From NCBI GenBank assembly GCA_040954595.2, contig CM082578.2:11725166-11789165 (forward strand): a stretch of 64,000 bases of DNA. The letters are read 5' to 3'. Both the position numbers and the translations under genes were made by a program. This document shows positions 8,701 through 64,000 of the stretch, in pieces. A model generated the notes under the pieces. The model was given only the letters and a program-made list of their open reading frames with translations, searched no databases and was not told where the DNA came from. The DNA comes from Balanoglossus misakiensis (taxonomy: Eukaryota > Animalia > Hemichordata). How positions within the stretch are numbered: the first letter of the stretch is position 1; every line of letters starts with the position of its first letter.

Positions 8701-11610
8701 TTACTTCAGTCACATAATGCACTTTCTTTCCTCTGAAGAGTAATTTCCTGTTTCAACATTAGATAGAGTTAAAACTGAATAGGACTTGCAGACTTTCATA
8801 ATCCTACTCTCAACAGAACATTGAACTATTTCCTTTGAGGTCAACGTTTGAATACAGGGGATGAGATCTTTCATTTCAAGAATGGCACCCAAAATCTGCT
8901 GACATTGTACTCTACATTGCTTTTTTATCATCTCTGTGATAAGACGGTTGATGTTGTCTTTATATAAAGTTCATGTCTGGTCACGATGAAGCTCTACTAA
9001 AACTGCATTCTCTGAGTCTGAATGAGATGAAGAGGTCCATCTCCTACTTTGTTTAGTGGTCAATGCAGTTTGCTTGGCTAGGAATCATTCACAGCAACTC
9101 AAGTCCACCGAAGCTCTGTTCATACAGCACCACATTTTGCAACGTGTGGCAAATGAAATGGAAAGTGATATATTAGAGTTGTTTTAATTATTCAAGTGGT
9201 TTTTCTATTCAAAGAGAAAAAAATAATTTAGTTCTTTCATATTGAATCATTAGACATTTCACTCACAATGATAAAAATTGGTTTTTAGCGCATTTATCAT
9301 TTTGCCATTTAAACAACAAAGTGAACCTTTTCAGCAAAATATCATAGCCCATTATGAAGATTAAAACCGTGAAATATTTTCCCATCACACCTCACAAATT
9401 ACCCATCTCTGCTGCCCACAGCCATTTTCAAATTGCTTTTAAAGTTCAAACTATAAAAGTGTCATAATTCATGCCATTGAAAGTTGATTCATTATTTATA
9501 TGAAGCACTTCAAAAAACTCAGAGATGGTACAATGAGGCTCATTGTCGTTGAAGCCCTGTAGTGAATTCTCAATAACTATTTTTATTCAGATCCATGCCT
9601 ATAGAATAACTTAAATTCAACCTTTTCGTCAACCAATAGGGACATAGACACATTAAAAAATACTTCAACTCCAAAGAGACACCCACTAAACATAAAAATT
9701 AAAAGAATGTTTTGTGAAAGAACAATGAGAAATAGGCCCCTTGCTGGGTGTACACACATAGCATCAAATCGGAAAGTGACTGAAAATGTTCAGTAAATAT
9801 CAAAGTGGAAAATCACCACTACAGCAAACTCTATTATATATTGATCGAGTTTTTCCCTCCAGTTCTAGTGTTATCACGACGAGCTACTGACATATTGCCA
9901 TGAAAGAAACGATATGGTACCTGACAACGCCTATGTTGACAGTTCCCCCCCCCCCCACCCCTTCAAGTTGTGAATTTCAGTGTTTTGGCCAGGAGCCATC
10001 ACAAATATCGACAAATTTCAGTAGTCTGTCCAGGGGCAATCACACACAGGAGTCCCTTACAGCATCTTTCTAATCAATACTACAACAATGAAAACATCAT
10101 GCAGAAGTATAAGCAATCTCATGGAGTCTTCGTTCATTTCAAGACTAACGCTATCATCACCAGTTCTCCCTTTTCAAAACTGTCACGTCTGAGAGTTTGA
10201 CACGCAGAAAGATTTTACATTAGACAACTCTGTTCCACAGAAGAAAGCAATCACTTTTATGAACAGCTGTGCCTTGAAACCCTCTCTTCAATATTACATC
10301 TTTGAAATTTAACGATTTATCGGCTCGCAACACGCCAGTGGCATCAACTTTTCACATTCACAGCTCTTCAAATTGAAAGCCTTTTTAGCCTATGGCTTTA
10401 TTTACTGCTTCTGTCTCTCACAAAGCCATTTCGTAAAATCACTTGCCTAGGTATGCTCAATCTTGCAGTATACCGACACCTATGCAAAATTTAATCAGCA
10501 GTTATCAAGCCCATCACAGATTTTCACTTGGGTGCACCACATAATGGTCATTAATATAAGACGCGTTCCTTTAACCATATACATGTATGGGCAAATGCAA
10601 ATTGGAGGTGACTCTATTCCTTTTATATCAAGACACATTCTGCAGAAAGCGTGTTCAGGCATCTATTCTATGCAGTATTAATAGTGTAGTACCAGATTCT
10701 CTCACAGCCCCGCTTGCCGCCTATGCAGACTCATCCTTTGGTTGAATGTGAGGCTGCCCTCAACGGTTTTGAATTGATTTTCGATTTTTTCTCATTAGGT
10801 AAGATTCCTGCCTAATGTGATAGTTTTCCTATATAAACTCTTAAACGTTCGCTCCACAATGCCCCATGCTGGCTTCATACGGTGATTCTCCTTTGCTAAA
10901 CAGTTGAGGGCACATCAGTGTGCAACACGCAGAGGGCCTCGTAGCAGACCTTGGGCTGTGAGAGTCTAGTGCATGTACAACATTCATGCAGAGTTCCCTC
11001 CATATACCCATGTGCAGAACACCAGTTCTAAAGCAGAATCTACTCTTTATATTTATAAACATCATATATTTCTCAAGCATTCAGTAATGTGAGATTACTC
11101 TAGACTTCTAAATAAGATTAGTGGATGCACATGCAGCTTTGGTTTCATATTATCGCCATGCCATAATTTATGCAACTTTTATTTTCTGTACTGTTGCTAA
11201 CGGCAACATAGGCAGATCAGATACGGACAACCATGCAATTTACCACAAAAGTGCTGTTATATCAGAAATTCTTATTAATATCAGTAGTCAACACATGCAT
11301 GCATTTTAAAGATGTAAAACATCGTAAGGCCGAACGTTATCCTTGGATGGACAGAACACGATCCTAAACGTCTTTTTTTATCAGAAAAACATGCAATATG
11401 AGACCACCAAGCAAATCGTCTGTGTGATGCAGCCACTGCACATATCAATGTGGCTAGTATAAAAGTATAATATAGCAATATCATTTTTGACAGCAGACAC
11501 ATGATTTATCACAGAAACACAAATGTTACTTCCACACCAACACAGCTTTGTGGGAGTTGCCTGAATTTAACGATAATATATGGACCTTGACCACCGACAC
11601 GCAAAGCACA

Positions 11611-12051
11611 TGACAACCACGGCGTGACAAAAACCCGACACATCCAAGTGCTTGTGTGTACTTACCAACCTCTCCTGCGCACATCGTACTGGTCAATGTT
11701 ATTAGGACCTAAACTCCATATGTGTGCTATGGCATTTAAAGAGATTGACACGATATTCTAGTACAGATCACACCCAGGAGTATTAAAATTAAAGTCAAGA
11801 CAAAAAAAAACACGCACACATGGGTATTTCAAGACTGCGCTTTGCAAGCACAACTGACACCTTTATTGTGATTCAGCTTTCCTCTCTCTGTCCTCAGATT
11901 TTGCACAATCCACATGAAACTGACGTGCAAAACCTGAGGTTTGAATAGCGCCCTCAGTGGTCAAATAAACAAAACTGTCAGCCAAATATGAACTTCTAGC
12001 AAGGATTAATAAAATAGTACATGTATTCAATTTGGACACACCGTGTTGTCA
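11611..12051 (-). promoter_or_regulatory. Putative intronic RNA stem (arms 12037-12051 and 11611-11626) enclosing exon 7b
   Basis: In the transcript, UGACAACACGGUGUG pairs with CACGCCGUGGUUGUCA: 15 bp including one G-U wobble, plus a single-G bulge. Confidence 0.6.
11666..11726 (-). CDS. CACNA2D: CACNA2D alternative exon 7b (61 nt, phase 1->2): AHIWSLGPNNIDQYDVRRRGW
   Basis: Acceptor ctctttaaatgccatag, donor TTG|gtaagt. Closely matches alpha2delta-1 ASPW...IDLYDVRRRPW. Confidence 0.93.
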
Positions 12052-14745
12052 GTTGTTTTGGCCTGTGTGTGTCTGTGTTCTTGCCAAGAGCAGCCTGTAT
12101 ACCCGACACATACATGTAGTTAAAAATGATGATGCATCAGTAGTGTGAGGATGCGGTGGACTGAAATACACGATGAAAACACGGAGAAAAGCAAAGCAGA
12201 GTTGCTAAAAGCAAGGTGAAACAGATGCGAGTAAACAGACAGTGTGTAAGAAATTAATCGGGAAGAATTATCAGGCAACTTGTCGAGTAGTAAAAAAAAC
12301 AACACTCTTAGAGACTACAAAACGGTGACCATTTACCAGCTCCGTGTTCGGTGATCGAATGTATCCACTGAGATATCATCCTTCATATAAGCTGTGGAAA
12401 GGAATTGTCAGGGTGACCATTCAACGAGTTAAATATGGTACCATCCAGAGAGGCGTGGTTGGAACCATATACAGCAGGTAGCTTAGCTAGGAATGAAAGG
12501 TCATCCATTGCCACCAAAATTCTCTCGCCTGTAGTCTGCAATTTTTTTTTCTTGAATAGATATCTCAGAATTTGAATATCAAATTCACCGCAAATAGTTT
12601 ACTGTACGAGATCAGCTATTGCAGAGTTATAAATAATTTAGACTGTAAGTAGGAATGCGCAAAAACATTTCAAAATGTAAAGAAGCGTCATGACAATTAA
12701 ATGTTATGCAATAGACAAATATCAGAAATATTGTTATTGTTAATGTAAAATCCCGTCTGATTTTATAACAAAGTGATATTCGACTTCAGTGTGCAAGATT
12801 TAAAACACACATTCGGTGTTATACCCTTACCACCACATTTTGTGTGACCGACACCTTTTGTTAGTGACACGCATCACCATTATCAGAAATAGTGTGTTTT
12901 GGACTGTTTTTCGGTCAAAATAGATCAAACTTCAAGTTAGGCTCTTTTACAGAAGCTCACATTGAAGCTCTTTTAATAGCGAGTATGCCACGTAGAGTTA
13001 AAGGCAGCATAATGTCATTTTTTTTACAAGGCTAGATAGCATAGTGTTATGAGAATAAACTGAAAAAGTTTTTTTAGTAACGCGCTATCATTTGATGCAT
13101 GATAAACTATAATGTACAAACAGTTTTGTCTATCTCTGCAAGTTTTCCTTGTATGTGTGATAAGCATGATTTCAAAAACTGAAATAAATTTGGAGCAAAG
13201 TTGCCTAAAAAGGATTTGGAGATAAAAGGGTGAAAAAAAACTTACACCCTCAACAAGGATGGTCAATAATTATGTCTTCAAATAAGCCCAAGAACTGGAG
13301 TAATTATTCCACTTTTCATCAAACAGGACGCAAGTGAACACAGTGCGTGTCTCATGCATTCCTTGGTAACTCTGACTCTATTTTGGTGACCCCCTTTTCT
13401 CTTGCACATAAACCTGTTTCATTTTTGAAAAGTGACCAACCAATAGACCAGCCTTGCATGAGTGTAAGTGAATTGTGCACATAGAAATATTGTGTGCTGA
13501 TTATCAGAGAAAGAAACCCCAAATGGTGAAAAAACACAGTAAAGATACCACCACCAAAATTTAAACGCTGTTTAATAGGCGTGCAGGTTGAATATAATAT
13601 TACGCAATGAGCCGAGGGATGCTTGCATAGCTATGCAGATAAATCAGCGGGTGCTGCACTTCATGCAGTGATTTTTAGCCATTTTTTTGCATTTTCAGAC
13701 AAGTTGGTTTCTGCCCCGAAACAGGTGATGGTGAAATATCTGACAGACCATCATGTGACACACCTATCATTTCTCTCTTGTGCGAATTTGCATGATAGTG
13801 CTTGATTTCAATAGCATTGGCCAGATCATTTCTTATTTTCACATGTGGTTCTACACACATAATTTTTTTTTTAGAAAATAACATCCAACTCGAATTTTGA
13901 AGTTCAATTTTTGAAGTTCAATTCTTTTCAGCGGTATAATACCAAAAGTGAGGATATAAAGCTTTATGTTTTTTTCAGTTCTGAATAAACTGACCACAGC
14001 AAAGGAAAGTTCCGATACTCAGTTTTACAAACATGTAGTTTCTGGGGTTCCAATCTTGTCTGTGATGCAAAATATGGCATTGAGAAATCATGCAGGTAAC
14101 ATGCAGCACCGTCTTAAATATAATATAAACATGCATTTGGTCAAACTACAACTAATTTAACATCTAGACACTTCACTCACAGATACTATTGACAATGTAA
14201 GTAAAACATTCACTCTAACTTCTATTCTATTTTATTCTATTTTGTTTCTTTTCTATTCTATGCATTCAATTCCATTCTTGATGTTACTGCTTTTCTTCAA
14301 AATGCAAATTTGTTATTTGCGTCTGCCAGAAATCACGCTAAATTTTCTTTTATTCTTTTATCTATCTTCATGAATTTTCAAAGTCATGTCAGTTTTATAA
14401 TACTTTATTCAGCCATGCTTTAGCAAAAAACCTACCTGGATAAGTTCTCATAAAGCCTTCACTGCTGCCAAAGTACTGCCATATAAGCTCTTTATCGTTC
14501 TGATAATTGGAAACATAAACTTCATCTATGCCACTGGTCCATTTTATACCATTGAGGATTCTTGGGTCTGTTGGAAACAGCAGAATTAATTTACATATTT
14601 AAATTGTACGCTCTTTGAACGAATCTCAGTTCAAAAAGTGGAATTTTTTCAGCTACCCCAAAAGTGAAATGCTGAAAGACTGCATGTCAGATTATTGGCC
14701 AATTACTGATCCATGATGTATCAACTGATCACACTCAATTAATCT

Positions 14746-14803
<58 letters not shown>

Positions 14804-17800
14804 CTGTCAATCAAACACACACACACACAGAATCCTATTGAAAGAATGACTTTACCTCCTTTAAAAATGTCTGTTGGTATATGCACCACACTAGCGGACA
14901 TGTTGACAGGCTGCCCGAACTGAGAACTGTCGCTCACGTTCAAATCTAAATTTTTGGCATCGTGGTATTCAACATCTTCACTCTATTTTTGGAGGGAAAG
15001 AGAAATTAACAGTCAATTCTATAAAGCTGCTATGTCCAAGAAAACTTGACTTGAATGCAGTAAATAGTGAAATTAAGGACATATTTTTTTGCTATTAAAA
15101 AGCACAAAGGTGATGTAGATGTTGAGTGTACGAATACTTGATCATCGTATGTGGCAGATACTTTTAAATCAATTAAAGAAAAAAGGAAGTTACCAAAATG
15201 TCTGGGTCATATGTGTGGTTGGTGGCTGCTTCTTCCAGATGGTCCACCAATCTCTGAAAGCAAATCAGAAAAAAACGTATTAAAATGCGCCCTCTTGTGG
15301 ATAAAATTTTGTTCGAAAAAGACGTTCATCCTGCCCAGATGGCGCCACCTATTGATGACGAGCAGCCACCGATATATCTTTTGTTTTCACGTTCCTTTCC
15401 CTCTCACGACTTTGCCCGGAGGCCGACACGAGAAAGCATGAGACTCACAGTCATTGATCCGTCATGTAGCTGTGCTAATTCAAACTTTTGCAAAATGAAA
15501 TGAGACGAATTCACAAACGGAGTGAATAACCTCGGGGCAAAAAGAGTGTTGACGTACATCAATATTCACCTGGGAGTCAAAACTGATGGCTTGGATTTTT
15601 CCTGTCACGCCAAACAAACCGTATCAAGTTTTTCAAACCATTGTCATATTGATGGGAAAAATTACACACAAAAATCCCTGGGAGACACAACACACATCCA
15701 TGTTGTGCGAAAAATCAATAAGCTGTCTGATCATATACCGAACACTGTTCACAAAGTAAAGATTTCTGGCCAAAAAAGACAAATTTTGAGTATTTAGGTT
15801 TTATTGGTTTTTGAGAGGACACAGGAGATAAAGTATTGCTGAAATGCTGGAACAGAATTCACATATTATGGTATTTCATGTTCATAGTTTGTATAAAAGA
15901 AAGACAAAAATTCTCATATTGTAATGTATGATCAAAATCCTAAATCTCTGACATCGTAGATGATGACAAATTCAATGTATTCCAGTGGGAAAAGTAAACT
16001 CAGTATAACACTATATCTCACAAACACTATATATACCATACGCACTGAAAAAAATTTGTATATTCACAGTTATATGGGGTAAAAGTTGGTAGCTTGTGCA
16101 GACACCCACATACTTTCAACAAGTTGCAGAATTTTATCCGTCAATTAGACAAAACCGCATGAAACTGTGCTGTGCTCTTTCCAACTCGCTATCGGGAACC
16201 TTCCAACTAACCTCCACGAATTAGCCACATCGTTGACTTATTGCACTGAAACCCTGTATTTCCCAGGCGAGCATTACTTCCACAGAAAAGAACACAATCT
16301 TTGTGTGCTCAGCACTAATTGGCAGTGAATCCATCAAAGCATATATATTCAAGGCATATTTTCCAACAGAAAATTGATCTTAATGAGAGAGCAATGACCT
16401 TTACACCTCCCTGAATTTGGCTATACCCTTCCAAACACAGTCGACGTCATTCCCAACAAAAAAAATTATCACCAATATGCAAGATTATTACGCGCTGTAA
16501 TTGGTTTCCTCCTTTGTCGGGTAAAAAAAACCACACCATTTCCCAAATTGAGCTTCCCTGCAATACACCAAGACTGAAGAGGTGACCTACTTCAACAAAC
16601 TGCAGCACTGCCTGCAGCATTTGTCAATACCATATGCACGGCAGTTGAACTAATCCGCCCAGTAATTTCCACTCTGTGTTTATTCCTAGATTGTGCAAGT
16701 TTCACAGTAATAACTATAATGACTGCGCATGTGGTTGGGAGTTTGTAGCCGCGAGAGCTGAAATTTTAAAATAGCGCAGCCAGCCGTGAATCTTTTATCT
16801 GTTGCTCTCTTCCTAATTCACTCAATCCATACATGTATGTGTGTATATGTGTGTGTGTATCTCATCAGACTCCACAAAAACGAACTTCTCTGGTTATTTT
16901 GTCACCCCTTGCCAAATTGAGCATGCCACCAACACAATAGGAACTCATCAGAGCCATCTAGTGATCTGCGAAAAATGCATGTTTCTTTAAAAGCAGCTTT
17001 TAACAAACAAAAGCTGTGATCTATTAAAGTGGGTGGTATCTTGTTTCAGTTCATTCCGAACCAGTGTACGTTCTCGCATGAAGAGTACAGTAGGTAGTGT
17101 TTCAACTAGTTCATAAAAGGAGAACGCCTGTGTGTACAGTTCCAATTAAAATCGCCACCTTCTAAGCTCACAATTATTAATACAACATCTACATTTACCA
17201 AATTGTATCTATATGTAGGTACACCACGTGTAATCAGTATTGATCTGTCATGGTGTTTTCTTTAATCTATATAGTACCCAGTGCGAATGTACCTGTTATG
17301 TTTTGAGAAACCACACTGAAGGTCCATTTCTACGACACCTACCCTATCACGTCGAAAAAATATAAACATGCTTGTTTCCAAAAGACCTTGATTCAATAAA
17401 TCAATTCAGATGGTTTCCTCTTGAGGTGGCAAAATCAAATTAAATATTCCAACATCACTCACACACACAACTTAATTTTCAGCCACAAAGGACCATAACT
17501 CAATATATGCAAAAAGACATCATCAAATGAATGCATCTTTTTTCCCCTCACAAAAAGACTGTGATTCAAATGAATGACTGAATACACACAGTCACTGACA
17601 AATGTTGCAGTATTCAATTAAATTGTTGTGCCAATTAAATGCAGCATGCACATGAAACGGGGACCGATGAAACAAATCAAATGATTCACTTGCTTCAGAG
17701 GACCGTGTCAACAGTTCCATTCTTGGACAAAGATTCAGTGTAAATATGCTTTCATCGGCAATCAGTCTAATCAATTTTCACTTTTTTATTAGTTCAGATG

Positions 17801-50800: not shown

Positions 50801-53800
50801 TGATGATTTCAAGAACAACATTGCAATGTGGAAATCTGAGAATCAAGAAAATTGCATCTCTCCTGCCTTTGTTCCTGGCTCTGTCAAAAAAAGAGCCCAG
50901 CATGCCGCATTGAACTTGCTAGCAAATGGCCGTAAACCCCTGCTGAGAGAGCTGATGTAACCGGCCAATGAGATCTTCTTGTTGATCATATTACTAGTCA
51001 AGATGGAGCTAATTACCTTTACATTACCACCAGTACCTTTTCCTTGACTGTAACCTTGTCCAATCAACAGCAAAACGTATATAATTGACTTCAAGGGGAA
51101 CGCCAGTTACACGTTCTCAGCAGGGGTATACTTGTAAGCTTGCAAGTTCAATAATGCCACACCCAACTCTGCTTGAAGCTTTTCTGACTACCCGGGGTAC
51201 TGCAGAATTGAGCTACACATGGATTTTGGTTAATTATTTGAAGCAAATACAGACCAGTCCTGAATGTGACACTTGACTAGTAGTTTTGTGCCTATATATG
51301 AAGTCGTACATTCTTTCCTCGTCCACTACACAAACTTAAGAGCAAACGTGAAAGAACGTACAGCTATTAAGACAACTATTTGACCAGAAACACATCCCCA
51401 AGAGCAAAGGACATGGTAACCATGTCAAAGTAATCACAACAGAGATTCTGGGCAGTGTTTTCAAATTCAGCCTTTAATGTTGACGGATGAAGTGATTTTA
51501 TTGAAACCATCCAACTACAGGTTGGAACATGCAGAGTTATTGGTTGTAAAGAGTGCCCGCCGTGCAATTCATACACAAAACACGCGTGCATCCAAAGACA
51601 TCAATCAGTATAATGGTCGCGTTAAAATTCATTCACAGCCAAAAATTTCATAAGGTTGTCATGTCAGTGGAAAACAGTTCGACAGACTTTGCTGTTGTTA
51701 TTGCATTTGTGATTTCAAGCAGCGACTCCATAGCATCAGATTGACTCGAACATTATTAAATCACTCACTACATGGCAATATGTGGCCATCTTATATGTCT
51801 AACATGCAGTACTGTGCATGCATGAAGTTCAAAGTCTTTACATAAACGTGAAATTGTTCGTTCTCGACGGTACCTCGCCATCCATAAAACGTTCACATTC
51901 TGGTGATTCTGAGATCGATCACTGTACTCCACGGAGTCATTCTATTGCGAGTAAAAGAACGCGAACTAAATTGCAGTACGCTCAAGATGAAAGGGGACCG
52001 GAAGTCAACAAACTGAAGCCGACTGATGGTAATGTAGCTGGTGTGCAAACGCCATCTTCCACGAGTTTTCTCTGTATTTCTTTTAAGTAGATGCTTGGCT
52101 TCGTCTTCTTGTAATATTCAATAAATCGTAACACGTTTTGAGTTACAACTGGTGCACAGCCGGCAGAAGGTGTAGTGTACGAAAAGTCACCCGTGTTGAC
52201 AAACTTTTGACAAATGGTACATACGGTCGACTTCGAAATGCCGATCGCGCGTGATATCTGTCCATATGACCTGCCCTCGAGGTACATTTCCACAATTTTC
52301 TCACGTACAGCTTGTGGTGTTGGTATACCGCCTTTCCCGCGAATCATGTTTTATTGTCCACTAGCAGTTCGAAGACAGAGAGCAAAAGGGAAGGACTGGA
52401 CACGCACGCGTAGATAAAAGTCTTGCTTTAGCAAGCAATGTGAAGTGTAAGACGATCCTCTTACGACACCCGTAATACCCCACTGTTAGTATTGTAATCA
52501 ATCTCGATATAACCTCTTTGAATTTACCGCAACATCAACAACTGGGCGCCGAAACTGAAGTAAGATAAGGAACAACTTGGCAAACCAAATGTGCAAGTAT
52601 GGTAACATTTAGATCAACATTATCGTTCGAATCCAGATGGGAACGATAGTAATGACACTGATGATAAGACACCTTTGGAACAGACTGTGTCCCTAACCTA
52701 TGCTGATCCTGGCAGTTTTCGCAGTTACATGTACACATTGTGAGAGGAAAACTACGGCTGGTTAACTACGTCACACGCAATTAGTCGACTGGACCTCTTC
52801 ATTCTCCTGTTCTCTGGAGTTCCACTACAGAAACCATGGAAACAAACTCCGCCAATTAACACTCAAGGTCTGAATATTGAAATCCGTCATTGTAAACTTG
52901 CTCAGGATACGCGCTTCCTCTCTCGAGCACACAGCTCCGACTTTTTTTCTGTCAGCCTCATGCATCAACAAGTTCACGCTTTGCACTTAACGCATTAAGC
53001 AAAATGCCCGTTCATTTACACTGTGTTTTTCAGAACGGATTATTCAGACCCAGAAATATACACACATAAAAATTGATCTCTTATGTACTGGTATGTTGAA
53101 ACTGACTTAAAGGTTACACATAATCATATCACCTCTTCAAAATTTTATTTTAACTATCATAGTTCTCGTAAACTCTGTCAGAAGAATGCTGCATTCGTCA
53201 TAACACGTGACTGGGTATTTTAGCAAGCAGGAAGTACATGCACATGTAATGGTAAAACTAATTTCGTGGAGATAATGTTTGCAAGATTCCCTGGATTGTC
53301 CATCAAAACAATGTATAAGCACAGTCAGATAAAAGCAATTACAATTGTAAATCAACACTGGTTGGACAAATGTTCTCTATAATCATATCAGAAGTCGGTA
53401 TCTGGTTGCACTTTTTGAGTGATCACAACGATCGATGTTACCGCAAAACCTCTGATGTGCAAGTATTGCTACAGATAATGCTTCAAAAGCCAACCTTCTT
53501 ACAGAAGGTCCCAGAAGAGAGATGGCCAGATCTCCATTACTCTCATTACAAACCTAATCAGTTGATGAGACAATTAATTAGAGCTTCATTAAGAGGCAGG
53601 CCAGTAGGGAACTCTATGCAATTGTAAAGACAGGTGCAACAGCACGCTAGGGAAGGAGAGAGGGAGGGATACATGGACACCTTGGGCTGGGTGTGGTTTT
53701 GTCCAGTCATTAAATGACAGGTGTGTTGAGATAACTATGGGGACCTATCAATAGAGTGTCGAAAGCAAGGAGTGAATTCAGACGATCATCCACCATCACG

Positions 53801-59800: not shown

Positions 59801-60828
59801 AGAAAACTTCGGCCCATCACTAAATGCAAAGTCATTTTATCATCTGCATGGAAAAATGGAAAACTAGGGCACAATTAGCACTGTGAATGGGGTGAATTCA
59901 GCATTCACAAACCATTTTGAATTTATTTCAGACATTTTTAAAACCTGGGGTAATCAATTCGTTTATCAAAAAAATTTGCATGGAGGTTCTTCCTTGCATT
60001 TTTAAGGAAACATTTCTCAAAGCTATTGGGCATCTCTGTGTGAAAAAAAAAAATTGTCAGGAATTTTCCGTAATGATGATGACGGGATGTAGAAAAAGTG
60101 GGTCAATTAGGAATAAAACAGAGCTGAATACATCTTCCTCACGGACGCCTTTTTCTGCATTGTCTATTCTCTAGTATTCAGCTGTCTGTCAACGCATACA
60201 TGTATATATACCATTCAATGTAAATGCCCCTGTAATGCACAGACCAGTCTGTGCGCCTTCCATGCAAATCATTTTTTTTCCTCGTTGCCATCACCGAGAA
60301 GCCACCGTCGTAGACACAATGGCCACGCGGCACAGTTAACGCATTCCCTCAATATTTGACAGCCTGTCGTATCATAGCTCCGTCCGTGCATCGTATGATG
60401 GATTAAAAATTTTCAACTGACAAGTTTTATTAGAAATAATCAGTGATCGCAGGCATTGGTGGACAGTTAAAAAGTCTTCTGATATGTCGACTCTATTTAA
60501 CTTGTAGCTGAGCTCTCCACAAACACTTTTTTATTATCAAGATACATGTATAACTTACCCACCCAGCCAGTCTGATCCAAGTACATTTCAGTGTCAAGTC
60601 TCCAGTTTCAAGGTACACATGAAACCGATACAACAAGACAGGACTAATGTGCTATCGTTAGCTGCAATGAAACTATTATTGTATTAACAAAGCAGAAACA
60701 CGGCTACTATTCGTAGCCGAGTTTCTGCACACCTAAACATTCTTACCTGCGTCAGATAGTCAATCCCTAATACACTGTCCACGGACACTTTCAGCAGATC
60801 TCCAATCCCTTCAGACCACCCCTTTATT
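11666..60828 (-). CDS. CACNA2D: Voltage-dependent calcium channel alpha2delta subunit (CACNA2D family), partial multi-exon gene (N-terminal helices and start of first dCache domain)
   Basis: Manually spliced GT-AG exons read IKGWSEGIGDLLKVSVDSVLGIDYLTQ/KYQDANIPLAAVDGETIVAEIANNWETLLGWKMSALK/RLVDHLEEAATNHTYDPDIL/SEDVEYHDAKNLDLNVSDSSQFGQPVNMSASVVHIPTDIFKG/DPRILNGIKWTSGIDEVYVSNYQNDKELIWQYFGSSEGFMRTYP/AHIWSLGPNNIDQYDVRRRGW with consistent intron phases. This matches recalled alpha2delta motifs (VHIPTDIY, WQxFGSxxG, YDVRRRPW). N-glycosylation sequons NHT, NVS and NMS are present. The vertebrate paralog cannot be assigned. Confidence 0.96.
12337..12391 (-). CDS. CACNA2D: CACNA2D alternative exon 7a (55 nt, phase 1->2): AYMKDDISVDTFDHRTRSW
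   Basis: Branch-like ctgac and acceptor ttcctttccacag, donor CTG|gtaaat. Open frame continues exon 6 and ends in a split Trp codon. FDxRxRxW motif is homologous to exon 7b. Confidence 0.82.
14436..14567 (-). CDS. CACNA2D: CACNA2D exon 6 (132 nt, phase 1->1): DPRILNGIKWTSGIDEVY...LIWQYFGSSEGFMRTYP
   Basis: Acceptor tgtttccaacag, donor CAG|gtaggt. Contains the LNxxxWTSxxDEV and WQYFGSxxGFxRxYP motifs. Confidence 0.96.
14746..14829. repeat. Compound microsatellite (ATCA)n followed by (CA)n in the short intron between exons 5 and 6
   Basis: About 14 ATCA units at 14746-14801, then a CA run to 14829. Confidence 0.95.
14856..14982 (-). CDS. CACNA2D: CACNA2D exon 5 (127 nt, phase 0->1): SEDVEYHDAK...VVHIPTDIFKG
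   Basis: Acceptor ctttccctccaaaaatag, donor GAG|gtaaag. Contains the diagnostic VHIPTDI motif. Confidence 0.95.
15194..15253 (-). CDS. CACNA2D: CACNA2D exon 4 (60 nt, phase 0->0): RLVDHLEEAATNHTYDPDIL
   Basis: Acceptor tctgatttgctttcag, donor TTG|gtaact. 20 codons, matching alpha2delta-1 [20 protein letters not shown]. Confidence 0.9.
31280..31470. mobile_element. MITE with CTGTAAAACGG-type terminal inverted repeats
   Basis: ctgtaaaacggtaaatttt / aaaatttcccgttttacaa (2 mismatches), with internal ttcgcgaa motifs. A related right end (cccgttttacagta) is at ~55035-55048. Confidence 0.65.
32937..33206. mobile_element. 270-bp MITE with 27-bp terminal inverted repeats
   Basis: gggatcgaataacacactgcactcagt (32937-32963) / actgaatgcagtgtgttattcgatccc (33180-33206), one mismatch. 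No obvious TSD. Confidence 0.8.
35493..35550. repeat. Polypyrimidine/(CT)n low-complexity tract
   Basis: tctctctcttccctctctctcccc...ctctctctctctctctct. It produces the spurious ERERE ORFs in the track. Confidence 0.9.
36218..36328 (-). CDS. CACNA2D: CACNA2D exon 3 (111 nt, phase 0->0): KYQDANIPLAAVDGETIVAEIANNWETLLGWKMSALK
   Basis: Acceptor ctctttgttgtag, donor AAG|gtaagt. Resembles the alpha2delta helix ...[21 protein letters not shown]. Confidence 0.9.
47293..47379 (-). mobile_element. ~85-bp piggyBac-like (TTAA-CCCT end) MITE; related copy at ~55114-55202 (+)
   Basis: Reverse complement begins ttaaccctttcacc...atggtaaagttg, matching 55114 ttaaccctttcaccacaatggtt...atggtaaggttgg. Partial similar ends occur near 22273 and 24676. 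Confidence 0.55.
47411..47724. mobile_element. Double-inverted-repeat non-autonomous element (two abutting stem-loops; Crypton-like architecture)
   Basis: IR1 is 47411-47435 / 47559-47583 (25 bp, 2 mismatches). IR2 is ~47582-47632 / ~47674-47724 (near-perfect, ~50 bp) around a ctcgctatcgctcgtg core. The superfamily call is tentative. Confidence 0.7.
51982..52347 (-). mobile_element. Truncated transposase N-terminus with paired (PAX)-like bipartite HTH domain (Tc1/mariner-IS630 type remnant)
   Basis: ORF GIPTPQAVREKIVEMYLEGRSYGQISRAIGISKSTVCTICQKFVNTG...FIEYYKKTKPSIYLKEIQRKLVEDGVCTPATLPSV follows the paired-domain pattern (GRPLP..IR.KIVEM...ISRQL.VS..CVSKIL.RY.ETG...IEEYKRENP.MF.WEIR.KL..D.VC....PSVS). 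It is intronless and no DDE domain follows. Confidence 0.72.
55445..55620 (+). repeat. Tandem duplication, ~90-bp unit x2
   Basis: atgacatcaacacc...gaatattcaggtcactaaactcaacag...gagaacaatagcc starts at 55445 and 55535. The first copy has a 7-bp insertion. Confidence 0.92.
60692..60728. repeat. 16-bp hairpin immediately downstream (in the transcript) of the exon 2 donor
   Basis: gcagaaacacggctac-tattc-gtagccgagtttctgc, one mismatch. Confidence 0.85.
60747..60828 (-). CDS. CACNA2D: CACNA2D exon equivalent to vertebrate exon 2 (82 nt, phase 2->0): IKGWSEGIGDLLKVSVDSVLGIDYLTQ
   Basis: Acceptor ttttttatccag, donor CAG|gtaaga. Aligns with alpha2delta-1 [27 protein letters not shown], same length. 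Confidence 0.9.
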
Positions 60829-62063: not shown

Positions 62064-64000
62064 TTGTTAGGGTTTCGAGACCCTCTGGTCTCGAAACCCT
62101 CTTGAAATCGTGTTGTTTTTTATTATTATTCTTCTTCCCACTCTTAAAAACAGCCGCTATTCGAAGACCGTTGCACCCAATGACTTGAAATTTGGCTCAT
62201 AGGTAAATCTCAAAGCAAGTAATTTTCTGATCATGTAACTATGGCAACAGGTCACATGACCTGGCAGCCATCTTGGATTGAAAGTTTAAAATTGATCTCA
62301 TTTGCATAAAAAATGACGAATCAAAATTCTTTGAACAAACTTTGTGGACCATATGGCCAGGGTCCTATATGCAAAATTTCAATGTTCAAGTCTTTGCCGA
62401 TTTTGAGGAGATGATTTTTAAAGCATTATTTTTCATATTTTTCAAGACCATTGGACCCAGCCTTAGGCCTATACTTTCCATAGTTAAGCTATGGCCACCT
62501 AGGATCTTAGATTTATGCCCAATATCTCAACATCCGCTGGGCTGATCAGCTTCAAATTTATTGTGCAGCTAGCCTACCTTCCAACAATCAGTTCCAACTG
62601 GAAAAAATAATATGAAAAATCGACCGATTTTTTTATATTAATTTCTTTATGAAATCTATACCTATACGTATTCCACTATAGTTAAGCTATGGCCAAGTCG
62701 TTTTGTAGAATTCTGGTTGGTGCAATAGTCCTATCGGCCAGTGTGCAGCATAGGACCACAAAAAGAAGCCAAATTAATTCAAGGGTCACCTGTGACACCT
62801 GCCTAACTCATTAATTATGTGCATACCTAATTCGAGGCAAACCAATAGGGCTACAGGTCTGATTTTTGTTACACATGGACCAGTATGGGGTCAAATTATC
62901 CCCCGAAATTTGGGGTGACCTTGAGTGACCTTTGACCTTCTTCCGCATATCTCGGCATCCAGAGCAGGTACAGCTTAGGTGTTTGGGTGGATGGTACCAA
63001 AATAAGAAGCCAAATTCAAGGGTCACCTGTGACACCTGCCTAACTCATTAATTATGTGCATACCTAATTCCAGGCAAACCAATAGGGCTACAGGTCTGAT
63101 TTTTGTTGGACATGAACCAGTATGGGGTCAAATTATCCCCCAAAATTTGGGGTGACCTTGGGTGACCTTTGACCTACTTCCTCATATCTCGGCATTTACA
63201 GCAGGTACAGCTTAGGTGTTTGGGTGGATGGTATGAAAATAAGAAGCCAAAATTTAGGGTCACCTGTGATTCCTGCCTAACTCATTAATTATGTGCATAC
63301 CTAATTCTAGGCGAACCAAGGGGGCTACAGGTCTGGTGTTTGTTGGATATGTACCACTATGGGGTCAAATGTTTTTGCCCACATTTTGGGTGACCTTGGG
63401 TGACCTTTGACCTACTTCCTCATATCGCGGCATCCAGAGCAGGTACAGCTTAGGTGTTTGGGTGGATGGTACCAAAATAAGAAGCCAAAATTTAGGGTCA
63501 CCTGTGGCACCTGCCTAACTCATTAATTATGTGCATACCTAATTCTAGGCGAACCAAGGGGGCTACAGGTCTGGTGTTTGTTGGATATGTACCACTATGG
63601 GGTCAAATGTTTTTGCCCACATTTTGGGTGACCTTGGGTGACCTTTGACCTACTTCCACATATCTCAGCATCTAGAGCAGGTACAGCTTAGGTGTTTGGG
63701 TGGATGGAACCAAAATAAGAAGCCAAAATTTAGGGTCACCTGTGACACCTGCCTTACTCATTAATTATGTGCATACCTAATTCCAGGCGAACTAACAGGA
63801 CTACAGGTCTGGTGTTTGTTGGACATGGACCAGTATGGGGTCAAATTTTCCCCCCAAATTTCGGGTGACCTTGGGTGACCTTTGACCTACTTCCGCATAT
63901 CTCGGCATCCACAGCAGGTACAGCTTAGGTGTTTGGGAGGATGGTACCAAAATAAGTAGCCAAAATTTAGGACCACCTGTGACACCTGCCTAACTATGTG
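62064..64000 (+). mobile_element. Helentron-associated (HINE/DINE-like) non-autonomous element carrying an internal tandem array; runs off the window
   Basis: The 5' end has a perfect 14-bp hairpin agggtttcgagacc-ctct-ggtctcgaaaccct (62069-62100), then a (TTA)n(TTC)n microsatellite, unique sequence and tandem repeats. This is the layout described for HINE/DINE-1-type elements. Confidence 0.65.
62763..64000 (+). repeat. Tandem array of ~238-bp monomers (5 complete + 1 partial)
   Basis: The aagaagccaaa..agggtcacctgtg anchor occurs at 62763, 63004, 63241, 63479, 63717 and 63954 (periods 241, 237, 238, 238, 237). Confidence 0.97.

What the first reader, a model, noticed from the sequence alone, without database searches (positions are those of the whole stretch)
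11611..12051. Predicted selector/docking RNA stem that loops out exon 7b
Seen: 12037-12051 (between 7a and 7b) and 11611-11626 (40 nt past the 7b donor) are complementary. In the minus-strand transcript UGACAAC-ACGGUGUG pairs with CACGCCGU-G-GUUGUCA. The only DNA mismatch becomes a G-U wobble in this strand specifically, and weaker outward extension is possible. Established: insect mutually exclusive clusters such as 14-3-3zeta and Mhc use a downstream docking site pairing with inter-exon selectors to exclude the enclosed exon and activate the upstream one. Inference: stem formation selects 7a and melting permits 7b. I found no convincing reciprocal stem around 7a.
Basis: partly seen in the sequence, partly recalled or inferred. 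Interest (0 to 1): 0.75.

Follow-up and report, generated by a model that had tools for sequence, protein, structure and literature searches.

The report
Acorn-worm calcium-channel subunit swaps pocket exon
A calcium-channel helper-subunit gene, probably from an acorn worm, carries two copies of the exon whose human counterpart builds part of the gabapentin-binding pocket and likely uses one or the other, as sea-urchin and starfish records also suggest; the RNA pairing proposed to choose between them exists on paper but is only modestly supported.

Summary
The 15-pair complement is real (-21.7 kcal/mol, one G-U, one bulge). It flanks exon 7b of an alpha2delta (CACNA2D) gene, probably enteropneust. 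Alone it is borderline: 14 of 284 background windows do as well, its pairing probability is 0.09-0.27, and the second allele breaks one pair without compensation. It is one of three helices linking the 7a-7b intron to the 110 nt after 7b; together they beat all but 3 of 284 windows (post hoc), with nothing comparable before 7a. Cross-species conservation and RNA reads could not be tested. I put a real splicing role at about 0.45. The exon pair is better supported. 7a matches the Ptychodera protein and 7b the Glandiceps protein, and sea-urchin and starfish isoforms show three and two alternatives here. Its human counterpart carries four of twelve gabapentinoid-pocket residues; 7a lacks the W223 equivalent kept in 93 of 96 family representatives.

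The parts
60747..60828 (-). CACNA2D exon 2 (82 nt)
   Evidence: AG/GT ends and peptide; similar to the N-terminal part of P0001/P0002
36218..36328 (-). CACNA2D exon 3 (111 nt)
   Evidence: peptide similar to P0001/P0002
15194..15253 (-). CACNA2D exon 4 (60 nt)
14856..14982 (-). CACNA2D exon 5 (127 nt)
14436..14567 (-). CACNA2D exon 6 (132 nt), constitutive exon before the cluster
   Evidence: 93% identical to Ptychodera flava P0001, 81% to Glandiceps P0002
12337..12391 (-). Exon 7a (55 nt): divergent pocket exon without the W223-equivalent; donor GUAAAU
   Evidence: 11 of 17 residues identical to P0001, 4 of 17 to P0002
12183..12424 (-). 242-nt block with no allelic difference: exon 7a plus 154 nt of U/C-rich downstream intron; candidate regulatory region
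   Evidence: one contig at depth 49 where each allele has about 30 (record 4); about 3.9% differences in five flanking allele contigs
12271..12280 (-). Helix D, 5' arm (10 Watson-Crick pairs with 11564-11555)
   Evidence: predicted only
12021..12088 (-).
   Evidence: predicted only
11948..11965 (-). Helix C, 5' arm (16 pairs with 11602-11586); inside a 121-nt stretch without allelic difference (11893-12013)
   Evidence: predicted only
11666..11726 (-). Exon 7b (61 nt): canonical pocket exon with W, Y, R and W; donor GUAAGU
   Evidence: 18 of 19 residues identical to P0002, 14 of 19 to Saccoglossus P0004; no allelic difference
11586..11643 (-).
   Evidence: predicted only
11555..11564 (-). Helix D, 3' arm
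   Evidence: predicted only

Best explanation
Without pairing, 7b, the exon next to the element and the one with the consensus donor GUAAGU, would be the default; pairing would hide it and help the weaker 7a donor GUAAAU. Transcripts with both exons or neither shift the frame and would probably be removed by nonsense-mediated decay, so the pairing would set the ratio rather than be the only safeguard. The switch replaces the loop and strand that carry four pocket residues of the first dCache domain, and 7a-type proteins would have an altered amino-acid pocket. Shown: exon anatomy, frame arithmetic, complementarity, orthologous alternative peptides. Inferred: mutual exclusion in this animal (about 0.9), a splicing role for the pairing (about 0.45), changed ligand binding.
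For: Same-phase exons of 55 and 61 nt; both together give 116 nt and a stop inside 7b. 7a-type peptide in P. flava, 7b-type in Glandiceps and Saccoglossus. S. purpuratus isoforms carry 3 alternative peptides here (6, 1 and 1 of the 8 members that include exon 6, of 14) and Acanthaster 2 (6 and 1 of 7); isoform pairs differ only here and none carries two copies. Three separate helices (-13.0, -12.5, -10.1 in a length-penalised score): the sum is matched by 3 of 284 genomic windows and 3 of 409 block shuffles, the second-best helix by 2 of 284 and 2 of 409; the mirror region before 7a gives -6.3. 70-nt tile duplex -49.7: 0 of 28 shuffles, 1 of 32 genomic windows. Extended arms against shuffles of their own composition: 0 of 1500 (arms chosen after the fact). 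5 of the 7 allelic changes at predicted paired sites keep a pair as G-U (chance 0.024; transitions alone 5 of 5, 0.079). Helix C has p 0.80-1.0 in both alleles in 3 of 4 folding frames.
Against: Core alone is at about p 0.05, and the three-helix statistic was devised after seeing the data. An unpenalised version of my duplex score gave 23 of 284 and 51 of 284 genomic windows and 88 of 145 shuffles as good. The whole region folds no better than shuffles (z 0.50; 13 of 20). The second allele breaks the core pair 12038-11625 and the outer pair 12030-11634, shows no double compensatory change, and weakens every helix measured (core -21.7 to -18.1, extended -52.4 to -43.1, C -24.6 to -21.9). Paired sites are not depleted of polymorphism (7 of 128 vs 14 of 507, Fisher p 0.16). 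The downstream element is promiscuous: 3 better partners elsewhere on the minus strand and 5 better plus 2 equal on the plus strand. Other inter-exon tiles reach -50.9 to -53.5 against 2-kb flanks, against -48.9 for this stem. High-probability bridging helices are common by chance (9 of 33 random windows at p 0.8 or more). Exon 8 is not in the remaining 11.6 kb, so the pairing cannot bring 7a close to the next acceptor.
Confidence: 0.45

Rival explanations
1. The exons are mutually exclusive, but the choice is made by proteins and splice-site strength and cleaned up by nonsense-mediated decay. The complementarity is a by-product of an A/C-rich stretch lying near a G/U-rich stretch; such stretches could bind hnRNP L-like and CELF- or ESRP-like proteins (factor names recalled, from no call).
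For: Core at about p 0.05, breaking allele, no depletion of polymorphism. UGU 6 and UGG 3 in the 90 nt after 7b (background 2.7 and 1.4) and ACA 12 in the 101 nt of 12120-12020 (background 1.9 per 90 nt). The most invariant intron stretch is the U/C-rich 154 nt after 7a, not helix A. The frame rule alone removes double inclusion and double skipping.
Against: The extended register beats 1500 of 1500 shuffles that keep each arm's composition, and block shuffles reach the three-helix sum only 3 times in 409. The pairing potential sits only on the side that the docking model predicts.
Confidence: 0.42
2. 7a is a decayed or rarely used copy and there is no regulated switch in this animal.
For: No RNA evidence from this species was obtained; P. 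flava and Glandiceps each have only one annotated protein in the collection.
Against: 7a has an open frame, intact splice sites, no allelic difference, and is the form annotated in P. flava; echinoderm isoform sets show the same kind of switch.
Confidence: 0.07
3. Exclusion is steric: a distant branch point for 7b lies too close to the 7a donor, or the two exons use different spliceosomes.
For: Branch-like CUGAU (12274) and UUAAU (12257) followed by a pyrimidine tract lie within 100 nt of the 7a donor.
Against: The intron is 610 nt with 28 AG dinucleotides, and the AG-free zone before the 7b acceptor is only 29 nt; both donors are ordinary GU donors.
Confidence: 0.04

Closest known systems
Downstream docking site / selector pairing in insect mutually exclusive clusters (14-3-3zeta, Mhc, Dscam exons 4 and 9, srp stem II; PMC4691838 passages and Discussion, PMC6071210 first fifth; Yang et al. 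2011 not read)
   Same: Tandem homologous exons; a site between them complementary to a site after the last one; the enclosed exon is looped out and the upstream exon, which has the weaker donor, would gain; the exon next to the docking site is the default.
   Different: There the arms are conserved across species, show compensatory changes and were proven by mutation. Here none of that is shown, several inter-exon sites point to one G/U-rich element for a single upstream exon, one allele breaks a core pair, and the animal is a deuterostome invertebrate.
Human ATE1 exons 7a/7b (PMC7797038; abstract and outline only)
   Same: Two-exon cluster in a deuterostome controlled by several intronic pairings.
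   Different: ATE1 has R1 and R4 competing for R3 plus a 30-kb R2-R5 pairing, all conserved and tested. No upstream competitor was found within 200 nt of 7a here, and ultra-long partners beyond the window could not be sought.
Vertebrate alpha2delta-1 splice regions A, B, C and the alpha2delta-1/2 versus -3/4 pocket difference (PMC9901441 sections 9 and 14)
   Same: Variation in the first dCache domain that can affect gabapentinoid binding.
   Different: A, B and C are cassette or alternative-acceptor events away from the motif exon, and the paralog difference is put down to a Phe upstream of this exon. Here the exon that carries the YxxxRxW motif itself is exchanged within one gene.

Membership tests
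alpha2delta subunit (CACNA2D) | Sequence similarity to alpha2delta proteins with VWA_N, VWA and VGCC_alpha2 domains | tested here: met
   Exon 6 is 93% identical to P0001 (PF08399, PF00092, PF08473 precomputed); P0002 matches solved alpha2delta-1 at E 1.6e-186; a quick tree puts the enteropneust proteins with echinoderm ones on the alpha2delta-1/2 side, away from herring alpha2delta-4 (careful tree unfinished, midpoint root).
Homologous mutually exclusive exons | Tandem exons, same phase, aligning to the same protein segment | tested here: met
Homologous mutually exclusive exons | Each exon is used, never both, in transcripts | tested here: inconclusive
   No RNA holder listed for this species. 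Indirect only: annotated isoforms of S. purpuratus and Acanthaster carry one alternative each.
Downstream docking-site RNA pairing | Inter-exon selector complementary to an element after the last variable exon | tested here: met
   no third copy found downstream in the window
Downstream docking-site RNA pairing | Pairing stronger than background | tested here: inconclusive
   Core about p 0.05; three helices about p 0.01 post hoc; unpenalised score not significant
Downstream docking-site RNA pairing | Arms conserved across species with compensatory changes | not testable with these tools
   No related genomic DNA except L001, a brittle-star-like contig with only 255 nt before its 7b-type exon and no intron similarity. 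Within the species: no depletion of polymorphism, 5 of 7 changes keep a pair, none compensatory.
Downstream docking-site RNA pairing | Disruptive mutations change exon choice and compensatory mutations restore it | not testable with these tools
   Needs a minigene.
dCache_1 amino-acid motif (YxxxRxWY, PMC9901441, PMC8915833) | Aromatic residue, Arg and Trp of the N-terminal half of the motif | tested here: met
   7b has Y, R, W; 7a has F, R, W. F stands at this place in 31 of 96 family representatives, so it is an ordinary change. The C-terminal half of the motif lies outside the window and was not checked.

The most novel reading that the evidence does not exclude
Hemichordates and echinoderms share an old cluster of mutually exclusive exons that rebuilds the amino-acid/gabapentinoid pocket of alpha2delta, keeping the motif Arg and Trp but dropping the W223-equivalent in the alternative copies, so that one gene makes subunits with different ligand preference; in acorn worms the choice is set by an insect-style multi-helix RNA zipper around exon 7b.
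Probability: 0.25. Interest if true: 0.72.

Novelty: new member of a known kind. Interest (0 to 1): 0.45.

Why it matters
The function of amino-acid binding to alpha2delta is still open (PMC9901441 found no effect of Trp or Phe alone on surface expression). A natural, apparently old, splice switch of the pocket exon gives matched isoform pairs that differ only there, and sea urchin offers RNA data and experiments. If the pairing holds, it would extend docking-site control from arthropods and mammals to hemichordates, which is a modest step. If it fails, the exon switch still stands.

Tried and rejected
No whole genome is held. Sequencing-run search: no RNA holder listed; only DNA contigs of one sample, so exon use was not observed. 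Degenerate exon patterns found nothing in genome contigs and one contig, L001, in metagenome contigs; its introns do not align with the window and show no helix better than -6.3, but only 255 nt upstream are held, short of where arm 1 would lie. Rfam: no match at E up to 1 in 10500-13500. A third variable exon like the sea urchin's, and exon 8: none found in the window. Distant branch point: rejected on AG content. The idea that 7a is an alpha2delta-3/4-type exon: its ending resembles herring alpha2delta-4, but that group keeps the Trp that 7a lacks and the gene falls on the alpha2delta-1/2 side, so I do not claim it. The arms as remains of a high-copy repeat: depth over 11520-12215 is ordinary. 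The Y-to-F change in 7a as a pocket defect: rejected. Pairing probability as proof: rejected. My first duplex score had no length penalty and ran into very long alignments; its negative result is reported beside the penalised one. mis-set two exon ends by one base; one search corrects them. Two differences fixed in run X1 (11730, 11746) were left out of the count of 21 heterozygous sites. A Pfam scan of single exons was not completed; domain names come.

Full report
What the locus is. The window (35-42% G+C per 2 kb) holds part of an alpha2delta (CACNA2D) gene on the minus strand: exons 2-6 at 60828-60747, 36328-36218, 15253-15194, 14982-14856 and 14567-14436, then 7a (12391-12337, 55 nt) and 7b (11726-11666, 61 nt), 610 nt apart. 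Exon 6 is 93% identical to the Ptychodera flava protein P0001 and 81% to Glandiceps talaboti P0002, so the animal is probably an enteropneust close to, but not identical with, the P. flava record. Exon 8 and a third variable exon were not found in the window. No whole genome is held.

The exon pair. Both exons have the same phase; both together (116 nt) or neither shift the frame, and 7a+7b meets a stop inside 7b. 7a matches P0001 at 11 of 17 residues; 7b matches P0002 at 18 of 19 and Saccoglossus P0004 at 14 of 19. Among annotated isoforms, S. purpuratus shows three peptides at this position (6, 1 and 1 of the 8 members that include exon 6; 6 of 14 members lack it) and Acanthaster two (6 and 1 of 7); pairs such as P0130/P0127, P0130/P0128 and P0142/P0141 differ only here. 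The mollusc, lamprey, frog and mammal proteins examined show one type per species or paralog. These are gene models, not reads. L001 holds a 61-nt, same-phase 7b-type exon whose peptide is found in the Amphiura protein P0045, followed after 563 nt by exon 8, so the canonical copy is last in the cluster there too. A quick tree of 22 proteins (careful search unfinished, three alternative isoforms left out) groups hemichordate and echinoderm proteins (support 99) on the alpha2delta-1/2 side. Whether the alternative copies of hemichordates and echinoderms share one origin was not tested.

What the exon encodes. It aligns with the human alpha2delta-1 segment that ends in YDVRRRPW. PMC9901441 (passages, sections 9 and 14) and PMC8915833 (passages) place the first half of the amino-acid motif here, and PMC11308618 (passages) lists W223, Y236, R241 and W243 among 12 residues important for mirogabalin. 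The spacing of these four fits the mammalian sequence. 7b keeps all four. 7a and the echinoderm alternatives keep the Arg and last Trp but lack the W223 equivalent, which is present in 93 of the 96 family representatives that my pattern matched, out of 148 examined. An altered pocket is an inference; nothing was docked or folded.

The stem as observed. The core is as described: 15 pairs, one G-U, one bulge, -21.7 kcal/mol, -18.2 on the other strand. It extends to 50 pairs (12088-12021 x 11643-11586, -52.4). Two more helices join the inter-exon intron to the stretch after 7b: C (11965-11948 x 11602-11586, -24.6) and D (12280-12271 x 11564-11555, 10 Watson-Crick pairs, -17.0). D nests outside A or C; C crosses the core and competes with its extension.

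Controls. Core-sized tiles: 8 of 130 shuffles and 5 of 71 genomic windows do as well. 70-nt tiles: 0 of 28 and 1 of 32. Arms shuffled within themselves: 0 of 1500 (extended), 36 of 3000 (core), 15 of 3000 (core plus 10 nt), with arms picked after the fact. My own duplex score, with approximate loop energies, gave without a length penalty 23 of 284, 51 of 284 and 88 of 145, and with one 15 and 14 of 284. The sum of the three best helices is reached by 3 of 284 windows and 3 of 409 block shuffles, a post hoc statistic; the mirror region before 7a gives -6.3. The background windows overlap and include repeats. The downstream element has 3 better partners elsewhere on this strand, while arm 1 finds it as best or third-best partner in 64 kb depending on the penalty. 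The region as a whole folds like its shuffles and the stem is absent from the centroid. In four folding frames the core has p 0.09-0.27 and costs 0.9-1.5 kcal/mol to enforce; arm 2 prefers a local hairpin, and helix C dominates in three frames while exon 7a itself takes that site in the fourth. Such probabilities prove little, since 9 of 33 random windows hold a bridging helix at p 0.8 or more.

Allelic evidence. The only sequencing data were DNA contigs of one sample, possibly the window's source. They show a second allele with 21 heterozygous substitutions and 4 indels in 11520-12215; phase between contigs is assumed. Seven substitutions fall on 128 predicted paired sites, 14 on 507 other intron sites and none in 7b. 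Five keep a pair as G-U (chance 0.024); two break one, including core pair 12038-11625; none is compensatory. In this allele the core probability ranges from 0 to 0.6 by frame. The least variable stretches are 12183-12424 and 11893-12013, which hold the 5' arms of D and C, not helix A. This is one pair of alleles and weak evidence either way.

Mechanism. I favour, at 0.45, a downstream element that loops 7b out through several alternative helices and so helps the weaker 7a donor, with frame-dependent decay as backstop. This follows the model in PMC4691838 (passages and Discussion read), in which downstream pairing helps a weak splice site and the exon next to the docking site is the default. 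The close rival (0.42) is protein control with incidental complementarity between an A/C-rich and a G/U-rich stretch. Steric exclusion by a distant branch point does not fit 28 AG dinucleotides and a 29-nt AG-free zone.

Literature. Nine searches listed no title or abstract start on alternative copies of this alpha2delta exon or on docking-site pairing in hemichordates or echinoderms; most listed papers were seen only as listings. PMC6071210 was read in its first fifth, PMC7797038 as abstract and outline, PMC4202318 as passages (no mention of splicing). Yang et al. 2011 was not read. No supplements were opened; exon-array surveys may list this cluster in tables. The echinoderm isoforms are already in RefSeq.

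Verdict. Observation confirmed; interpretation partly supported. The single stem does not earn 0.75. The exon switch in the ligand pocket is the stronger finding. Interest 0.45; new member of a known kind.

Noticed in passing
window 11892-11939: Strong local hairpin in the 7a-7b intron (15-nt arms, 93% complementary; -27.2 as a duplex), present in the centroid structure, almost wholly inside a stretch without allelic difference; it would shorten the loop around 7b.
   Followed up: partly
window 12101-12111 and 11633-11643: An 11-nt direct repeat lies after both 7a and 7b and nowhere else on the minus strand; the second allele changes one base of the second copy. Chance or a relic of the duplication.
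   Followed up: partly
window 12183-12424: 242 nt without allelic difference, including a U/C-rich tract with branch-like motifs after the 7a donor and AG at 12206 and 12162; no exon-7-like frame follows. Unexplained regulatory candidate.
   Followed up: partly
window 11730 and 11746: Run X1 differs from the window at full depth at two sites in the 7b acceptor region, so the run may not be the window's source or the window has errors.
   Followed up: no
window about 10520-10950: High-copy dispersed repeat pieces (depth in the thousands, many loose ends).
   Followed up: no
window 51985-52350, minus strand: 122-codon open frame that looks like the helix-turn-helix start of a Tc1/mariner-type transposase (label recalled, not tested).
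   Followed up: no
window about 62770-64000: Tandem repeat with a unit of about 240 nt (seen).
   Followed up: no
window about 14740-14840: Simple repeats just after exon 5.
   Followed up: no
proteins P0127/P0128/P0130 and P0141/P0142: Echinoderm alpha2delta isoforms also differ by small cassette inserts further downstream (8 residues near 543 in sea urchin, 7 near 472 in starfish).
   Followed up: no
L001:256-316 and 880-930: Brittle-star-like orthologue of exon 7b and a 51-nt exon 8 in a metagenome contig.
   Followed up: yes
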